A DNA stretch of 64,000 nt, taken from NCBI GenBank assembly GCA_014191855.1, contig BJHF01000010.1, positions 1,121 to 65,120 of the forward strand. Direction: 5' to 3'. The notes below the pieces were generated by a model that was not told where the DNA came from, did not search any database, and worked only from the letters and a program-made list of their open reading frames with translations. This document shows positions 6,903 to 20,860 of this stretch, piece after piece. The stretch comes from Deltaproteobacteria bacterium. Its GTDB lineage: Bacteria > Myxococcota_A > UBA796 > SXON01. Each line of letters opens with the position of its first letter. The first letter of the stretch is position 1. The position numbers and the translations under genes are program-made.

Positions 6903-9900
6903 ATGCGCCTGCTCCCGCTCCTGCTGTTCCCGCTCCTCGGCTGCCCGCAAACGGGCGACACCGACGTGAAGGACACCGCCACGATCAACTCGGGGACGGA
7001 CCCTCACGACGATGACCGCGACGGAGTCACCGACGAAGCAGGAGATTGCGACGACAACGATGACGACGTGTTCCCCGGCGCGCTGGAGCTCTGCAACGGC
7101 GTGGACGACAATTGCGACGGCACCGTGGACGAGGGCGTCACGCTCAAGTGGTACGCCGACGAAGACGACGACGGCTTCGGTTCGACCACCAACTTCACCG
7201 AGGCGTGCACCGCGCCCGACGGCTACGTCGACCGCGGCACCGACTGCGACGACACGAACGGCACGATCTATGCCAGTGCCCCGGAGCTCTGCGACAGCCT
7301 CGACAACGACTGCGACGGGGAGATCGACGAGTCGCTGGGCGAGAGCTGGTACACAGACGCCGACGGCGACGGGTACGGAGATCCGGCGACGGAAGTGACG
7401 ATGTGCGACGGTTCGAGCGGGCTGAGCGCCGTCGGCACGGACTGCAACGACGCGGATGCGGCCATGAGCCCCGGGGCAGACGAGGTGTGCGATGGCATCG
7501 ACAACAACTGTGAGGGGACCATCGACGAGGCCTCCGCGGTCGACGCGGCGACCTGGTACCTCGACTACGACGGCGACGGCTACGGCGGCACCCGCCTGTC
7601 GGAGACCGGATGTTCGCCGAGCGAAGGGTACGTCGACAATGCGGATGACTGCGACGACGTCGATGAGTCGGTCTTCCCCGGCGCGACCGAGACGTGCAAC
7701 CTGGTAGACGACGACTGCAACGGCCTCGTGGATGATGGCACGACGGGGGCGACGACCTGGTATGCGGACGCGGACGGCGACGGCTACGGGGATGTGAGCG
7801 TTGGCGCCGCGAGCTGTGACGCGCCGGCCGGGTATGTGGCAGACGCCACGGATTGCGACGACACGGACGCGGCGGCGAACCCGGGCGAGACGGAATTGTG
7901 CAACGGGGTAGACGACAACTGCGATGGCGCGACTGATGAAACCGGCGCCCTGGGATCGCTGACCTGGTATGCCGATGCCGACGGCGACAGCTACGGCGAC
8001 GCCGGCACCAGCACCGACGCCTGCACCCAGCCCGCGGGCTACCTGAGTGACGACACCGATTGCGACGATACGAACGCCAGCGTCAATCCGGCGGGCTCCG
8101 AGGTGTGCGACGGCGTGGACAATGACTGCGATGGATCGACAGACGGCGCCGACTCGGCAGACGCGACCGTGTGGTACTACGACTACGACAGCGATGGGTA
8201 CGGGGGCTCAACCCTGCTCGAAACCGCGTGTTCACCCTCCGCCGGCTTCGTGGCCGACTCCACGGATTGCGATGATGGAGAGGCCAACACCTTCCCCGGC
8301 GCGCCGGAGTCGTGCAACGGAGAAGACGACGACTGCGACGGCGTGGTCGATGAAGCCGACGCGACCGACGTGAAGACCTGGTATGCGGACGCGGATAGTG
8401 ACGCGTATGGGGACGCGAGTGTCACCTATGATTCCTGCGACGCGCCGGTTGGCTACGTCTCCAATGCAACGGACTGCGATGACACCGACGCGGACGTGAG
8501 CCCCGGCGACCGTGAGGTGTGCGACGGCGCCGACAACGACTGCGACGGCGTGACCGACGAAGCCGACGCCATCGACGTCACGGACTGGTTCGTAGACGCC
8601 GACAGCGATGGGTACGGCGATGCATCCGTGTCCACCGCCGCATGCGACGCGCCGGCGGGCTACGTCGCGGACGACGAGGACTGCGACGACGCAGATGCCT
8701 CGATCAACCCGGGTGAAGACGAATACTGCAATGGCACCGATGACGATTGCGATGGCGCCACGGACGAAGCCGGCGCCGTGGACGTGTCGGCGTGGTACAG
8801 CGATGCCGACAGCGATGGGTATGGGGACTCCGGCAGCTCTTCGATTGGGTGCAGCGCGCCGGCCGGCTACGTTTCCGACGCGACGGACTGCAACGATGCC
8901 GATGCGAGCATCAACCCCGGCGTGAGTGAGGAGTGCAACGGGATCGACGACGATTGCGACGGCCTCGTCGACGACGGCAGCTCCGTCGGCGCCGACACCT
9001 GGTACGCCGACGACGATGGCGACGGCTACGGCGATCCCTCCGACTCCCAAACATCCTGTACGCAGCCCAGCGGCTACATTGCCGACGACGACGACTGCGA
9101 CGACACCGATGCCGACATTTCGCCCTCCGGCGAAGAGCTGTGTGATTCGGTCGACAACGACTGCGACGGCTCGGTCGACGAGTCCGACGCGACGGACGCC
9201 ACCACTTGGTACGCCGACGCCGACGGCGACGGCTCGGGCGACGCTTCGGTGAGCACCGTCGCTTGCGATGCTCCCGTCGGCTATGTCGACAACGACGACG
9301 ATTGCGACGATACGGACCCGTCGTCGGCGGCGTGCTCCTGCACCCTCTCCGCGATCGGCGGTCCGACCAACCTGCTCATGCAGGGGCCAACGTACGGATC
9401 CTGGGTGGCGGACCCGCTCGAAACGCTCGGCGCCGGCCTGATCTGGGAAATGCCCAGCTACAGCGCCGTCACCTCCCTCACGCGCTTCGCCAGCGAAGCG
9501 AACATGATCAGCCGCACCAGCCCCACCACCACCACGCTCACCTACGGCTGGGATGGCACCGGTGGCGTCGTGTACGATGGGTACCTGTACTACAACCGCG
9601 CGGCGACCACCACGCTGGTGAAGGTCGACCTCTCCACGAACACGGTCGTCGCTACGCTGGCGCTCACCGGAGCCGGCGTGCACAACACCTACCACTACCA
9701 GTGGGGCGGATATTCCGATATCGACTTCGCGGCGGATGAGCAGGGCTTGTGGGTCATCTACGCGACGCCCGCCAATTCGGGTCGCCTCGTCGTCAGCAAG
9801 ATCGATCCGGCCACGTTCACGCTCTCCGCGACCTACAACACCACCTCCGCCGGCAAGACCAGCATCGGAAACGCATTCATGATCTGCGGCGTGCTGTACG

Positions 9901-10100
9901 CGACCAACAGCTACAGCTCGTCCACCGCCACCATCAACTACGCGTACGACACCGCCACCGGCACTTCCTCGTCGCCAGGGATTCGGATCCCCAACAACTA
10001 CGGCTACAACACCGAGCTCCAATACAACTCGAATAATGGGCGCATCTACGGTTGGGACAACTCCCACCGCGTCTACTACACGACCACGCTCGTGTACTGA
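6903..10100 (+). CDS. Lipoprotein: ~11-12 MopE-like Cys/Asp-rich repeats plus C-terminal olfactomedin (OLF) domain
   Basis: 1065 aa with lipobox LLFPLLGC. Tandem units follow D.DGDGYG..C..P.GYV...DCDD.D....PGA.E.CDG.DNDCDG..DE. For the C-terminal ~255 aa see the OLF feature. Confidence 0.9.
   Translation: [1065 protein letters not shown]
7014..9320 (+). repeat. Coding tandem array of MopE-like putative metal-binding repeats (~48-50 aa units)
   Basis: I counted 11 complete [DN]C[DEN]Gx[IVLT]D[DE] modules plus a partial one. The repeats are imperfect, in frame and without spacers. Confidence 0.85.
9330..10097 (+). other. Olfactomedin-like (OLF) domain-coding segment
   Basis: [68 protein letters not shown] and [14 protein letters not shown] match, block for block, the myocilin/olfactomedin OLF signature recalled from memory ([46 protein letters not shown], DYNP...LFAWDN). 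Confidence 0.8.
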
Positions 10101-19502: not shown

Positions 19503-20120
19503 TCACCCCTCCGCGGTGCCCGCCGCCGCCTCCGGCGCCAGCAGCACCACACGCGGCAGGTACGTCTCCCACCCCGTGGGGAGCCGCCTCAGGCGCGCGA
19601 GCGACATCCGGAGAATGTCCGCTTGTGTAGGCAAACGCGGCAACGCACGAAGCGTCATGTTCGCCTGCTGGGGCGTACGGTTCGCCTTGTACTGGTTGCA
19701 TCGCTTGCACGCCGTGATGGCGTTTTCCCACGAGGTGGTGTTCACCCACTTGCGCGCCCAGTAAAGATACACCTTCCCCTGCCGGGCCTGCGCCCGGGGA
19801 ACCACATGGTCGAGCGTGAGCTCACCGCGGTCGGGCCGACCGTCGGGAAAAGACGGCGCCCAGCCGCAGTACTGGCAGGTGTGCTGGTCGCGCGCAAGCA
19901 CCGCCCGCGCATTGAACCGCACCCGGCTCCGCACGTTCCGGTACTTGCGCAACGCGATCACCGCGGGCCAAGGGAGCACAAGTCGCTCCGAGCGGATGTA
20001 CCGATCGGCCACGTCCTCCACGGAGATGGCGGTGCCGTCGAGCAACATCTCGACAGCGCGCTCCCACGAGGTCACCTTCATGGGCGTGTAGTCGGCGTTC
20101 AACTGGAGGACTTGTAACAT
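19503..20120 (-). CDS. HNH endonuclease
   Basis: Track ORF 19503..20312 trimmed to the ATG at 20120, because the upstream part is read-through across tRNA genes. CQYCG...LTLDHVVPRAQ...WENAITACKRCNQYKANR is the HNH/McrA-type Cys4 + His-Asn motif. Confidence 0.85.
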   Translation of the reverse strand: MLQVLQLNADYTPMKVTSWERAVEMLLDGTAISVEDVADRYIRSERLVLPWPAVIALRKYRNVRSRVRFNARAVLARDQHTCQYCGWAPSFPDGRPDRGELTLDHVVPRAQARQGKVYLYWARKWVNTTSWENAITACKRCNQYKANRTPQQANMTLRALPRLPTQADILRMSLARLRRLPTGWETYLPRVVLLAPEAAAGTAEG

Positions 20121-20190
20121 GGTGTTCACTTGGGCATAGGGGTCCACACCGCACGACTCGAACGTGTCAATCGAGCCACGTGTGGGTGAC

Positions 20191-20264
20191 TGGCGGGGTA
20201 GGAAGGAATCGAACCTTCGTCGTCCGGTTAACGGCCGGGCGCTCTTCCATTGAGCTACAACCCC
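20191..20264 (-). tRNA. tRNA-Asn (GTT), slightly off-consensus
   Basis: 74 nt including encoded CCA. My fold: acceptor GGGGUUG/CUACCCC with one U-U mismatch, and D loop AAUGGAA. The anticodon loop is CCGUUAA, where C at position 33 is unusual. The T arm is GAAGG-UUCGAUU-CCUUC. Confidence 0.75.
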
Positions 20265-20271
20265 GAATAGG

Positions 20272-20343
20272 TCGGAGAACCTGGACTTGAACCAGGAACC
20301 TCTCGGTTCCAAACCGAGCGCTCCACCATTGAGCTATTCCCCG
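20272..20343 (-). tRNA. tRNA-Pro (TGG)
   Basis: 72 nt with no encoded CCA. Acceptor CGGGGAA/UUCUCCG with one G-U, D arm GCUC-AAUGGUG-GAGC, anticodon loop UUUGGAA, and T arm CCUGG-UUCAAGU-CCAGG. Confidence 0.9.
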
Positions 20344-20351
20344 AAAAGAAA

Positions 20352-20425
20352 GGTGATCGACCGGACTCGCACCGGCTTGAAACGGCTCCACAAGCCGTTG
20401 TTTCGTCTACTTCAACCTCGATCAC
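20352..20425 (-). tRNA. Non-canonical tRNA-like gene, His anticodon (GTG)
   Basis: 74 nt with no CCA. Perfect 7-bp acceptor GUGAUCG/CGAUCAC and C73. Anticodon arm ACGGC-UUGUGGA-GCCGU. T arm GCCGG-UGCGAGU-CCGGU, with G at position 55. Position 8 is A, the D stem is only GUU/AAC, and the D loop GAAGUAGACGA has no GG. The base at -1 is U, so no G-1 is encoded. Confidence 0.55.
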
Positions 20426-20427
20426 AG

Positions 20428-20503
20428 TGGCGGCCCCGACGGGTGCTTCCCCCGCTATCTCCGCTTAGACAGAGCGGTGACTCTGATGTATGTCTCCAGG
20501 GCC
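20428..20503 (-). tRNA. Non-canonical tRNA-like gene, Asp anticodon (GTC)
   Basis: 76 nt including G73 and encoded CCA. Acceptor GGCCCUG/CGGGGCC with one G-U. Anticodon arm CCGCU-CUGUCUA-AGCGG, with U at position 37. T arm GCGGG-GGAAGCA-CCCGU, a non-UUC loop. Position 8 is G, the D stem is GAC/GUC, and the D loop AUACAUCAGA has no GG. Confidence 0.5.
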
Positions 20504-20506
20504 AGA

Positions 20507-20582
20507 TGGTGCGCGAACCCGGGTTCGAACCGGGATTTCAGCCTTCGGACGGCGGTGTCCTCTCCAATTGGACGATCCACGC
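20507..20582 (-). tRNA. tRNA-Arg (CCG)
   Basis: 76 nt including CCA. Acceptor GCGUGGA/UUCGCGC with two G-U pairs, and D arm GUCC-AAUUGGAGA-GGAC. The anticodon loop is GUCCGAA, with one C-U mismatch in its stem. The T arm is CCCGG-UUCGAAC-CCGGG. Confidence 0.85.
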
Positions 20583-20586
20583 GAAT

Positions 20587-20665
20587 TGGTGCACACGGCA
20601 GGACTTGAACCTGCGACCTCTCGATTCGTAAACGAGTGCTCTGATTCCGACTGAGCTACGTGCGC
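20587..20665 (-). tRNA. tRNA-Arg (ACG)
   Basis: 79 nt including CCA. Acceptor GCGCACG/CGUGUGC with one G-U, an 11-nt D loop containing GG, anticodon loop UUACGAA, and T arm GCAGG-UUCAAGU-CCUGC. Confidence 0.9.
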
Positions 20666-20860
20666 CTGAAAGGGGAGGTGAAAACGCAGAGAGCCCGGCT
20701 TCCTTGCGGGGCCGGGCTCTCCTGGTTGAACCTTGAGAAGGTTTACAACATGGGAACCCGGGTGGAGGGATTGTGGAGGCTCGGCTTCGCACAAATCCGC
20801 CCAGCGACGATGGAATCGTCTCGGTGGTCGGTGCTCGGCAGGCGTCGCGTCATCTTGGTC

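What the first reader, a model, noticed from the sequence alone, without database searches (positions are those of the whole stretch)
20352..20503. Two cloverleaf-sized but non-canonical tRNA-like genes packed inside a tRNA operon
Two elements of 74 and 76 nt almost exactly fill the gap between tRNA-Pro and tRNA-Arg(CCG). Only 8, 2 and 3 nt separate them from their neighbours and from each other, the same tight spacing as the canonical genes. Both fold with 7-bp acceptor stems, 5-bp anticodon stems and 5-bp T stems. Their anticodon loops are UUGUGGA (GUG, His) and CUGUCUA (GUC, Asp). The second ends in an encoded G73-CCA. Both nevertheless lack the near-universal elbow and tertiary nucleotides. 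Position 8 is A or G rather than U. The D stems are only 3 bp and the D loops have no GG. The T loops are UGCGAGU and GGAAGCA instead of UUCRANY. The Asp-like element also has a pyrimidine at position 37. Intact stems together with loss of the D/T-loop interaction in both partners looks selected rather than decayed. It could mark an unusual tRNA class, or tRNA-like RNAs with a non-translational role.
Basis: partly seen in the sequence, partly recalled or inferred. Interest (0 to 1): 0.7.

Follow-up and report, generated by a model that had tools for sequence, protein, structure and literature searches.

The report
Phage-type tRNAs with an alternative elbow
The two odd elements are real, conserved tRNA genes (Asp- and His-type) whose corner is built from different but matching nucleotides, a design also found across many uncultivated phage genomes and often missed by standard tRNA finders.

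Summary
Both elements (minus strand: el2 20503-20428, GUC; el1 20425-20352, GUG) sit in a six-unit tRNA array directly upstream of an HNH endonuclease gene. This array is an eroded copy of the 20-25-gene horizontally spread "L-array"/phage tRNA clusters.

Both elements are under selection. Between the window and a related contig they differ at 1 of 150 positions, against 23 of 145 in the spacers. Homologues with the same odd T loops occur in other metagenomic and viral contigs, and their stems covary fully.

The D/T-loop contact is not lost; it is rebuilt. Position 55 is G and position 18 is A, instead of U55/G18. The 19:56 Watson-Crick pair persists and covaries: G-C in el1, U-A in el2, A-U in relatives. 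Across 562 cloverleaves in the fetched loci, G55 and the absence of a D-loop GG go together (p about 1e-87). Some phage contigs use G55 in every tRNA.

The elements are most likely working Asp and His tRNAs of a poorly annotated structural variant. I found no description of this elbow in the searchable literature.

The parts
20428..20503 (-). el2: tRNA-Asp(GUC)-type gene with a variant elbow. D loop UACAUCAG (A18, U19), T loop GGAAGCA (G54, G55, A56), G73 and an encoded CCA. It also has G8, U37 and A38.
   Evidence: Sequence. Own covariance model R1 and its homologues. Pair counts. One difference from L001.
20352..20425 (-). el1: tRNA-His(GUG)-type gene with a variant elbow. D loop AAGUAGACG (A18, G19), T loop UGCGAGU (U54, G55, C56), A8, G13.A22, C73 and U at -1. 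There is no encoded G-1 and no encoded CCA.
   Evidence: RF00005 40.0 bits in sensitive mode. Homologues L012, L092 and L309. Identical in L001.
20587..20665 (-). canonical tRNA-Arg(ACG), first gene of the array
20507..20582 (-). canonical tRNA-Arg(CCG)
20270..20343 (-). canonical tRNA-Pro(UGG)
20191..20264 (-). canonical tRNA-Asn(GUU)
20143..20185 (-). Remnant of tRNA-Ile(GAU). Both acceptor strands and the T arm are kept. About 30 nt, including the anticodon arm, are deleted relative to the intact gene in L001.
   Evidence: alignment with L001
19503..20120 (-). HNH endonuclease gene (205 aa) immediately downstream of the array. Its homologues follow large tRNA arrays in many contigs.
   Evidence: Pfam HNH
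20681..20720 (-). GC-rich hairpin plus U tract, 15 nt upstream of the first tRNA. It is conserved in L001 and looks like a terminator or attenuator.
   Evidence: sequence; alignment

Best explanation
el2 and el1 are genuine tRNA genes under structural constraint: a tRNA-Asp(GUC) and a tRNA-His(GUG).

They belong to a lineage of tRNAs carried by phages and by horizontally spread long tRNA arrays ('L-arrays'). This lineage builds the tRNA elbow differently:
- A18 with G55 replaces G18 with U/Psi55.
- The Watson-Crick 19:56 pair is kept but is free to change identity (G19-C56 in el1, U19-A56 in el2).
- In the el2 subtype the whole T loop reads GGNAGCA and the D loop reads ACANCAG.

In this Myxococcota-like chromosome they survive inside an eroded array: Arg-Arg-Asp-His-Pro-Asn, an Ile remnant, then the array's HNH endonuclease gene.

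Shown here: the cloverleaf, conservation, compensatory and tertiary covariation, colinearity with 25-gene arrays, and presence of the same types in phage tRNA sets.

Inferred: they are co-transcribed with their neighbours, cut out by RNase P and 3' processing, given CCA where it is not encoded, charged by AspRS and HisRS, and used as supplementary decoders. G55 necessarily rules out Psi55, and in el2 G54 rules out m5U54. The variant elbow may therefore change how modification enzymes or elbow/T-loop-directed nucleases see these tRNAs.
For: 1. Purifying selection. Window versus L001: el1 plus el2 differ at 1 of 150 positions, the four canonical tRNAs at 13 of 303 (p = 0.04), and spacers/flanks at 23 of 145 (p = 4.5e-7).

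2. el2 class, 29 aligned sequences. 99.2% of cells are paired, 19 of 21 pairs have changes on both sides, and the covariation score is 0.80 against 0.20 in shuffles (0 of 500 reach it). Slid controls give 38-52% paired.

3. Tertiary 19:56 pair in that alignment: G-C 26, U-A 2 (window, L001), A-U 1 (L200), no mismatch.

4. el1 class. L012 (T loop UGUGAGU), L092 (UGCAACU) and viral L309 (UGCGAGU, same D loop) have different, compensated acceptor, D, anticodon and T stems. L012 pairs A19 with U56.

5. General rule over 562 unique cloverleaves. With U55, a D-loop GG is present in 339 of 365. With G55, GG is present in 19 of 183 and AG in 177 of 183 (Fisher p = 9e-88).

6. Use in phages. Viral contigs carrying el2-type units are tRNA-rich, and that unit is usually the only GUC tRNA in the fetched segment. 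L188 (23 of 23), L203 (12 of 12) and L172 (22 of 23) use G55 throughout, covering most anticodons.

7. Same slot, canonical elbow. L433 has a 25-gene array (24 tRNAs plus a tmRNA) with the order Arg(CCG)-Asp-'CU'-His-...-Pro(UGG)-...-Asn-Ile(GAU)-...-HNH. The order and the 2-nt spacer match the window, but there Asp and His have TTC loops and a D-loop GG.

8. Identity elements. el2 has G73, GUC, G2-C71 and G10, with CCA encoded. el1 has C73 and GUG.

9. Precedent. L-arrays with a linked HNH gene are known, and in Anabaena 23 of 26 array tRNAs are expressed, aminoacylated in vivo and found on polysomes (PMC8421152).
Against: - There are no expression, processing or charging data.
- el2 has a pyrimidine at position 37 in the window (G in L001, A in most relatives) and A38 instead of C38.
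- el1 has U at -1, so it has no encoded G-1, the main HisRS determinant. It also lacks an encoded CCA that its homologues have.
- The array is visibly eroding. The neighbouring tRNA-Ile lost about 30 nt, and Lys, Lys, Glu and everything after Ile are gone.
- Only two close genomes (window and L001) bear on selection in this particular host.
- The viral el2-type hits were found through their T-arm sequence, so T-stem invariance there is by design.
- The position 18/19 assignments rest on alignment and motif counting, not on a solved structure.
Confidence: 0.7

Rival explanations
1. Nuclease- or modification-evading ('orthogonal') tRNAs. The A18/G55 elbow was selected in phages so that their tRNAs are told apart from host tRNAs. 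This would let them resist T-loop or elbow-directed tRNases, or a phage's own attack on host tRNAs. It would also let them escape TruB, TrmA and TrmH. The two window genes would be chromosomal leftovers of such a set and may protect the host's Asp and His decoding. This refines the best explanation rather than excluding it.
For: - Some phage contigs use G55 in every tRNA: L188 23 of 23, L203 12 of 12, L172 22 of 23.
- G55 cannot become Psi55, and G54 in the el2 type cannot become m5U54.
- In the even more eroded array L106, the el2-type unit is the only intact tRNA left beside the HNH gene.
- From my own knowledge, not tested here: tRNases that cut in the T loop exist (Burkholderia CdiA-CT E479 cuts between positions 54 and 55), and phage tRNAs that escape anticodon nucleases are documented.
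Against: - No nuclease, immunity or modification gene was linked to these tRNAs here.
- The window neighbourhood is ordinary chromosomal DNA.
- Mixed sets with both U55 and G55 tRNAs are common.
- Neutral fixation of an isosteric alternative is not excluded.
Confidence: 0.25
2. Non-ribosomal or regulatory tRNA-like RNAs. They would be charged but kept out of translation, as amino-acid donors for cell-wall or secondary-metabolite enzymes, or as decoys. The model is the non-proteogenic tRNA-Gly of staphylococci.
For: - The non-proteogenic tRNA-Gly genes of staphylococci carry TGC or TGT in the T loop instead of TTC and lack pseudouridine (PMC7826273). el1 has TGC and its homologue L012 has TGT.
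- Both elements lack G18G19.
- el1 lacks G-1.
Against: - No Fem-type, MprF-type, cyclodipeptide-synthase or other aminoacyl-tRNA-dependent transferase appeared among the 46 window ORFs scanned.
- The same elbow types cover nearly all anticodons in phage sets.
- The el2 T stem GCGGG/CCCGU matches the T stem of E. coli tRNA-Asp as I recall it (my own knowledge). That argues for normal EF-Tu use.
Confidence: 0.1
3. Decaying pseudogenes in a dying array, whose stems are intact only because too little time has passed.
For: - Adjacent tRNA-Ile remnant.
- U37 in el2 and no encoded CCA or G-1 in el1.
- ARAGORN and default Rfam do not call them.
- Three of the 26 genes in the Anabaena array are pseudogenes.
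Against: - The elements changed about 24-fold less than the spacers between the window and L001.
- The U19-A56 double change specific to this lineage keeps the tertiary pair.
- The same non-canonical loops recur in distant contigs with fully compensated stems.
Confidence: 0.1

Closest known systems
L-arrays: long, horizontally transferred tRNA gene arrays with a linked HNH endonuclease gene (Santamaria-Gomez et al. 2021, PMC8421152; Anabaena trn operon)
   Same: - Tightly packed same-strand tRNA genes.
- An adjacent HNH endonuclease gene.
- RNA ligase and tmRNA genes in related loci (L002, L003, L433).
- Patchy distribution.
- A mix of functional genes and pseudogenes.
   Different: - The window keeps only six units plus a remnant.
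- The HNH gene lies downstream on the same strand.
- The paper does not mention G18 or the T loop (term search).
- The host here is a Myxococcota-like MAG.
Phage-encoded tRNA clusters
   Same: - The nearest sequence relatives of el1 (L309, 78% identity) and el2 (L200 79%, L201 78%) are in IMG/VR viral contigs rich in tRNAs.
- CCA is often encoded.
   Different: - The window copy is chromosomal, with no phage structural genes in 64 kb.
- I found no publication describing the A18/G55 and GGCAGCA elbows.
Non-proteogenic tRNA-Gly of Staphylococcus (peptidoglycan bridge synthesis)
   Same: TGC/TGT instead of TTC in the T loop, no Psi55 and no G18G19 (PMC7826273).
   Different: - Those are Gly-specific and tied to Fem transferases.
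- Here the variant spans many isoacceptors, keeps a covarying 19:56 pair and pairs G55 with A18.
tRNA-Pyl and animal mitochondrial tRNAs lacking G18, G19 and T-Psi-C (review PMC7609411)
   Same: Functional tRNAs without the canonical elbow nucleotides.
   Different: Those have shortened D loops, altered stem lengths or no D/T contact. el1 and el2 keep standard dimensions and a D/T pair.
allo-tRNAs and 8/4 tRNA-His/Ser of bacteria and phages (Mukai et al. 2017, PMC5389517)
   Same: Irregular tRNAs found in phage and metagenomic tRNA clusters, including tRNA-His lacking G-1.
   Different: - Those have 8/4 or 9/3 acceptor/T stems and A73/U73.
- el1 is 7/5 with C73. The register is fixed by the encoded CCA in L012, L092 and L309.

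Membership tests
tRNA (elongator, Rfam RF00005) | Cloverleaf with a 7-bp acceptor stem, a 5-bp anticodon stem with a 7-nt loop and U33, and a 5-bp T stem with a 7-nt loop | tested here: met
   Direct reading. The el1 minimum-energy fold keeps the acceptor, D and T arms but extends the anticodon helix to 8 bp with a 3-nt loop; the el2 centroid is close to the cloverleaf. 99.2% of cells are paired across 29 relatives.
tRNA (elongator, Rfam RF00005) | el1 scores at or above the RF00005 gathering score (29 bits) | tested here: met
   40.0 bits, but only with permissive filters. It is missed in default mode and by ARAGORN.
tRNA (elongator, Rfam RF00005) | el2 scores at or above the RF00005 gathering score | tested here: not met
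   No hit at E below 10 in a 701-nt search. Relatives L106, L200 and L182 are also missed, while relatives with U8 reach about 42 bits.
tRNA (elongator, Rfam RF00005) | Near-universal U8, G18-G19 and U54-U55-C56 | tested here: not met
   el1 has A8, A18-G19 and U54-G55-C56. el2 has G8, A18-U19 and G54-G55-A56.
tRNA (elongator, Rfam RF00005) | D-loop/T-loop tertiary pair 19:56 | tested here: met
   Covariation G-C 26, U-A 2, A-U 1 with no mismatch. The general pattern is shown.
tRNA (elongator, Rfam RF00005) | Expression, end maturation and aminoacylation | not testable with these tools
   No RNA data are available.
tRNA-Asp identity (bacterial AspRS) | G73, anticodon GUC, G2-C71, G10 and C38 (from my own knowledge of the E. 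coli identity set) | tested here: inconclusive
   G73, GUC, G2-C71 and G10 are present. Position 38 is A and position 37 is U.
tRNA-His identity (bacterial HisRS) | G-1 paired with C73, and anticodon GUG | tested here: not met
   C73 and GUG are present, but -1 is U. The same holds in L012, L092, L107, L110, L309, L433 and L435. G-1 would have to be added after transcription.
L-array (PMC8421152) | Dense same-strand tRNA genes likely transcribed as one operon | tested here: met
   Spacers of 2-8 nt.
L-array (PMC8421152) | Anomalously long array (tens of genes) | tested here: not met
   Six units plus one remnant in the window. It is colinear with the 25-gene L433 array and the 22-gene L435 array.
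L-array (PMC8421152) | Linked HNH endonuclease gene | tested here: met
   I did not test whether this HNH is homologous to Anabaena all8564.
Non-proteogenic tRNA (Staphylococcus tRNA-Gly type) | TGC/TGT T loop and no G18G19 | tested here: met
   Met for el1 only (TGC). el2 has GGA.
Non-proteogenic tRNA (Staphylococcus tRNA-Gly type) | A partner aminoacyl-tRNA-dependent transferase | tested here: not met
   None among the 46 window ORFs scanned with Pfam. The rest of the genome was not seen.
8/4 or 9/3 tRNAs (allo-tRNA group) | 8- or 9-bp acceptor stem with a 4- or 3-bp T stem | tested here: not met
   The 7/5 register is fixed by the encoded C73-CCA in L012, L092 and L309.
tRNA pseudogene | Broken stems and a near-neutral substitution rate | tested here: not met

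The most novel reading that the evidence does not exclude
A18/G55, and its GGCAGCA/ACAGCAG subtype, is a distinct elbow architecture under selection. Phages and mobile tRNA arrays would use it to make their tRNAs biochemically distinguishable from host tRNAs. Such tRNAs would be immune to elbow or T-loop-directed tRNases or to host modification-dependent surveillance. Whole phage tRNA sets have switched to it, and bacterial chromosomes retain individual members, such as these Asp and His genes, as protective spares.
Probability: 0.25. Interest if true: 0.85.

Novelty: new variant of a known kind. Interest (0 to 1): 0.66.

Why it matters
- G18-Psi55 and G19-C56 are treated as near-universal in cytoplasmic tRNAs. 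Here a coherent alternative (A18 with G55, and a free-to-vary 19:56 pair) recurs across many isoacceptors. In some phage contigs it is used in every tRNA.
- It shows that the elbow can be rebuilt without changing tRNA dimensions.
- Standard annotation undercounts phage and array tRNAs. ARAGORN found only 4 of 62 GGC-type units. One such unit is unannotated in the GenBank record of Microcystis phage Mwe-JY26.
- It gives a concrete, testable handle on why mobile elements carry their own tRNAs.
- For genetic-code engineering, it offers natural tRNA scaffolds that cannot receive Psi55 or, in the el2 type, m5U54.

Tried and rejected
- Anchor search in genome contigs for Arg(CCG) T arm, 165-195 nt, then Pro D arm: no hits. 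The window's genome is not among the species representatives.
- Exact-protein lookup of the window HNH: not on record.
- blastn of the locus against GenBank phages: only generic tRNA matches. The window is not a known phage.
- Viral scan with a His-specific loop pattern: 90 hits, none a real homologue by covariance model.
- Viral scan with D-loop plus T-loop motifs: mostly random. Only 6 of 78 newly fetched loci were genuine.
- An 8/4 reading of el1 (first G as G-1): rejected, because it puts the encoded CCA of L012, L092 and L309 out of register.
- Sigma-70 promoter scan around the array: nothing found. The one terminator-like hit is merely the el1 anticodon arm read on the opposite strand.
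- Most HNH-homologue loci from genomes (L009-L011, L013-L020) have no tRNAs upstream, so the HNH-array link is frequent but not obligatory.
- Literature searches for this elbow variant: nothing found.

Full report
**What is there**

All tRNA genes of the locus lie on the minus strand.
- ARAGORN and Rfam (default mode) call four genes: Arg(ACG) 20665-20587, Arg(CCG) 20582-20507, Pro(UGG) 20343-20270 and Asn(GUU) 20264-20191.
- el2 is at 20503-20428: anticodon loop CUGUCUA, G73-CCA, T loop GGAAGCA.
- el1 is at 20425-20352: anticodon loop UUGUGGA, C73, T loop UGCGAGU.
- The spacers are 3, 2 and 8 nt.
- With permissive filters RF00005 scores el1 at 40.0 bits, above the gathering score of 29. It gives el2 nothing at E below 10.
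- ViennaRNA folds el1 with the acceptor, D and T arms of the cloverleaf but an extended anticodon helix; the el2 centroid is close to the cloverleaf.
- A strict cloverleaf scan I wrote finds only Pro, el1 and el2 in the whole window, and only 3 hits in 718 kb of unrelated viral DNA. Chance is not an issue.

**Context**

- The window has 64-71% G+C and ordinary chromosomal genes typical of Myxococcota: MopE-repeat proteins, a Ser/Thr kinase, OmpA, and a 2-oxoacid dehydrogenase E2. There are no phage structural genes.
- Directly downstream of the array, on the same strand, is a 205-aa HNH endonuclease gene (19503-20120).
- Its homologues are abundant in uncultured Myxococcota and "Deltaproteobacteria" MAGs.
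- Many of these homologues sit just after large, tightly packed tRNA arrays:

| Locus | Array upstream of the HNH gene |
|---|---|
| L002 | 18 tRNAs, with an RNA ligase gene after the HNH gene |
| L003 | tmRNA plus 10 tRNAs |
| L107 | 26 tRNAs |
| L099 | 19 tRNAs |
| L433 | 24 tRNAs plus a tmRNA |
| L435 | 22 tRNAs |

- This matches the published "L-arrays". These are long, horizontally spread tRNA arrays with a linked HNH gene and RNA-repair genes nearby. In Anabaena, 23 of 26 array tRNAs are induced under translational stress, charged, and found on polysomes (PMC8421152).
- The L433 order is Arg(CCG)-Asp-"CU"-His-Lys-Lys-Pro(UGG)-Glu-Asn-Ile(GAU)-...-HNH. This is the same order as the window, with the same 2-nt Asp/His spacer.
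- The window array is therefore a deletion derivative of such an array.
- Erosion is ongoing. The tRNA-Ile(GAU) that is intact in the close relative L001 has lost about 30 nt in the window.

**Are the two elements decaying?**

No.
- L001 is a Logan assembly contig whose HNH protein is 90% identical and whose downstream genes are syntenic.
- In L001, el1 is identical over 74 of 74 positions. el2 differs at one position (U37 in the window, G37 in L001).

| Region (window versus L001) | Differences | Fisher p versus the elements |
|---|---|---|
| el1 plus el2 | 1 of 150 | - |
| four canonical tRNAs | 13 of 303 | 0.04 |
| spacers and flanks | 23 of 145 | 4.5e-7 |

**Homologues of el1**

- A covariance model built from el1 and two relatives finds the same kind of His-type unit after the Arg genes in L012 (T loop UGUGAGU) and L092 (UGCAACU).
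- It also finds one in a viral contig, L309. That unit has T arm GCCGG-UGCGAGU-CCGGU, D loop AAGUAGACG and C73-CCA, and is 78% identical to el1.
- The acceptor, D, anticodon and T stems all differ between these copies and are compensated.
- All share A8, a G13.A22 mismatch, C73 and U at -1.
- Array relatives L107, L110, L433 and L435 have the same body but a canonical UUCGAGU T loop; L107, L110 and L433 also carry a D-loop GG, whereas the L435 D loop (AAGCGUCG) has none.

**Homologues of el2**

- The T arm GCGGG-GGNAGCA-CCCGU recurs in L106. That locus is an even more eroded array, where this unit is the only intact tRNA left beside the HNH gene.
- It also recurs in 42 IMG/VR stretches, about 25 of which are full-length matches to the el2 model.
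- These units share a D loop AACAGCAG that the search did not require. Most carry GUC, some UUC or GUG. They usually have G73 and an encoded CCA.
- T-stem variants GUGGG/CCCAU also exist.
- The viral contigs are tRNA-rich phage genomes. In most of them the el2-type unit is the only GUC tRNA in the fetched segment.
- On a model-based alignment of 29 sequences, 99.2% of cells are paired and 19 of 21 pairs show changes on both sides. The covariation score is 0.80 against 0.20 in shuffles (0 of 500 reach it). Slid controls give 38-52% pairing.
- Caveat: T-stem constancy among the viral hits is imposed by the search pattern.

**The elbow is rebuilt, not lost**

*The 19:56 pair is kept and covaries.*

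| Sequence | D loop (position 19 in brackets) | T loop (position 56 in brackets) | Pair |
|---|---|---|---|
| el2-class consensus | ACA[G]CAG | GG[C]AGCA | G-C |
| window and L001 (el2) | ACA[U]CAG | GG[A]AGCA | U-A |
| L200 | ACA[A]CAG | GG[U]AGCA | A-U |

- The counts are G-C 26, U-A 2 and A-U 1, with no mismatch.
- In the el1 class the pair is G19-C56, except in L012, which has A19-U56.

*G18/U55 is replaced as a unit by A18/G55.*
- In the el1 alignment, U55 goes with G18 (10 of 11).
- G55 goes with A18 (5 of 7) or C18 (2 of 7), and never with G18.

*The rule holds across all fetched loci.* I scanned all 438 loci (3.5 Mb) for strict cloverleaves and found 562 unique ones.

| Position 55 | D loop has GG | D loop has AG |
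|---|---|---|
| U | 339 of 365 | - |
| G | 19 of 183 | 177 of 183 |

- Fisher p = 9e-88.
- The 19:56 pair covaries in canonical tRNAs too: TTA with a D-loop GU, and TTT with GA.
- G55 tRNAs cover essentially all anticodons.
- Some phage contigs use G55 in every tRNA found: L188 23 of 23, L203 12 of 12, and L172, L187 and L193 each 22 of 23.
- el1 (A18-G19 with U54-G55-C56) and el2 (A18-U19 with G54-G55-A56) both obey the rule.

**Detectability**

| T-loop type | Found by ARAGORN |
|---|---|
| TTC (canonical) | 323 of 329 |
| TGC | 63 of 77 |
| GGC | 4 of 62 |

- RF00005 reaches about 42 bits for GGCAGCA units that keep U8.
- It fails on those with A8 or G8: L106, L200, L182 and el2.
- In GenBank, Microcystis phage Mwe-JY26 carries an unannotated UUC unit with this T arm, next to 15 annotated tRNAs.

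**How it most likely works**

Shown:
- Both elements are conserved tRNA-shaped genes with an intact, covarying tertiary pair.
- They occupy the Asp and His slots of a mobile tRNA array.
- Their closest relatives are phage tRNAs.

Inferred:
- They are co-transcribed with the neighbouring tRNAs, then processed, charged and used as supplementary Asp and His decoders.
- Expression may be conditional, as for the Anabaena array.
- el2 keeps G73, GUC, G2-C71, G10 and CCA.
- As I recall the E. coli sequence, the el2 T stem GCGGG/CCCGU matches that of E. coli tRNA-Asp. This is my own knowledge, not a tool result.
- el1 keeps C73 and GUG but has no encoded G-1. This is a trait of the whole array sub-lineage, including members with canonical elbows. 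Histidylation would need post-transcriptional G-1 addition or a tolerant HisRS. Thg1-like enzymes are known in Myxococcus (my own knowledge), but none was looked for here.

Weak points for full function in this particular copy:
- U37 and A38 in el2.
- No encoded CCA in el1.
- The visible erosion of the array.

**Rivals**

- Pseudogenes: disfavoured by conservation and compensation.
- A non-ribosomal role:
  - For: staphylococcal non-proteogenic tRNA-Gly genes have the same TGC/TGT T-loop signature (PMC7826273).
  - Against: no partner transferase is seen in the window, and the variant spans whole phage tRNA sets.
- An evasion or orthogonality role for the elbow:
  - For: the all-G55 phage sets, and the fact that G55 and G54 rule out Psi55 and m5U54.
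  - Untested here; it is my "most novel reading".

**Known or new?**

- tRNA arrays with an HNH gene, phage tRNA clusters and non-canonical tRNAs (Sec, Pyl, mitochondrial, allo-tRNAs, staphylococcal tRNA-Gly) are all known.
- I found no paper describing the A18/G55 elbow or the GGCAGCA/ACAGCAG type in phage or array tRNAs.
- That search covers open-access text only.
- I therefore rate this a new variant of a known kind.

Noticed in passing
window 20143-20185 (-): Remnant of tRNA-Ile(GAU), between tRNA-Asn and the HNH start codon. The acceptor strands and T arm are kept, and about 30 nt including the anticodon arm are deleted relative to the intact gene in L001 (764-838).
   Followed up: partly
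window 20681-20720 (-); also L001 and L106 about 700-745: A GC-rich hairpin followed by a U tract lies 15 nt upstream of the first tRNA. It is conserved in L001, and a similar hairpin precedes the L106 remnant array. It could be the terminator of an upstream unit or an attenuator controlling the array. No sigma-70-like promoter was found nearby.
   Followed up: partly
window 19503-20120 (-); loci L002, L003, L025, L092, L099, L107, L110, L433, L435, and L030/L036/L137/L140 (Chloroflexota-type MAGs): Homologues of this 205-aa HNH protein lie immediately after tRNA arrays in several phyla. Many other homologues (for example in Rhodobacterales) have no tRNAs nearby. Related loci add a tmRNA gene inside the array (L003, L433), an RNA ligase (L002) and a second HNH_3 gene (L433).
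   Followed up: partly
window 20426 (-1 of el1); L012, L092, L107, L110, L309, L433, L435: tRNA-His genes of this array lineage have U at -1 with G1-C72 and C73, so they have no encoded G-1. This holds even where the elbow is canonical. Other array tRNA-His genes (L099, L118, L030, L137, L140, L036) do encode G-1.
   Followed up: partly
L188, L203, L172/L187/L193, L410 (IMG/VR contigs): Entire phage tRNA sets use G55 with an AG D loop: 23 of 23, 12 of 12, 22 of 23 and 10 of 12 cloverleaves. Further T-loop types AGC... and CGC... follow the same rule.
   Followed up: partly
L313 (Microcystis phage Mwe-JY26, PP438418.1, about 100990-101063): An unannotated tRNA-Glu(UUC)-like unit with T arm GCGGG-GGCAGCA-CCCGU sits just after 15 annotated tRNAs. 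RF00005 scores it at 42.1 bits.
   Followed up: partly
L003 3451-3528, L004 2739-2816, L012 3106-3249, L021 4370-4442, L092 2513-2600: Other irregular units occur in related arrays. Some have 8-nt or 6-nt anticodon loops (ARAGORN 'tRNA-???'). L092 has a GGU-anticodon unit with an aberrant D arm preceded by a hairpin.
   Followed up: no
window 6903-10100 (+): A 1065-aa protein has 11 MopE-type metal-binding repeats and a C-terminal olfactomedin-like (OLF) domain (E = 8e-73). I would not have expected this domain in a bacterial protein (my own impression, not checked).
   Followed up: no
L306 3011-3084: A class-I-sized tRNA (no long variable arm) carries a CAA (Leu) anticodon and a UGCAAGU T loop.
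   Followed up: no
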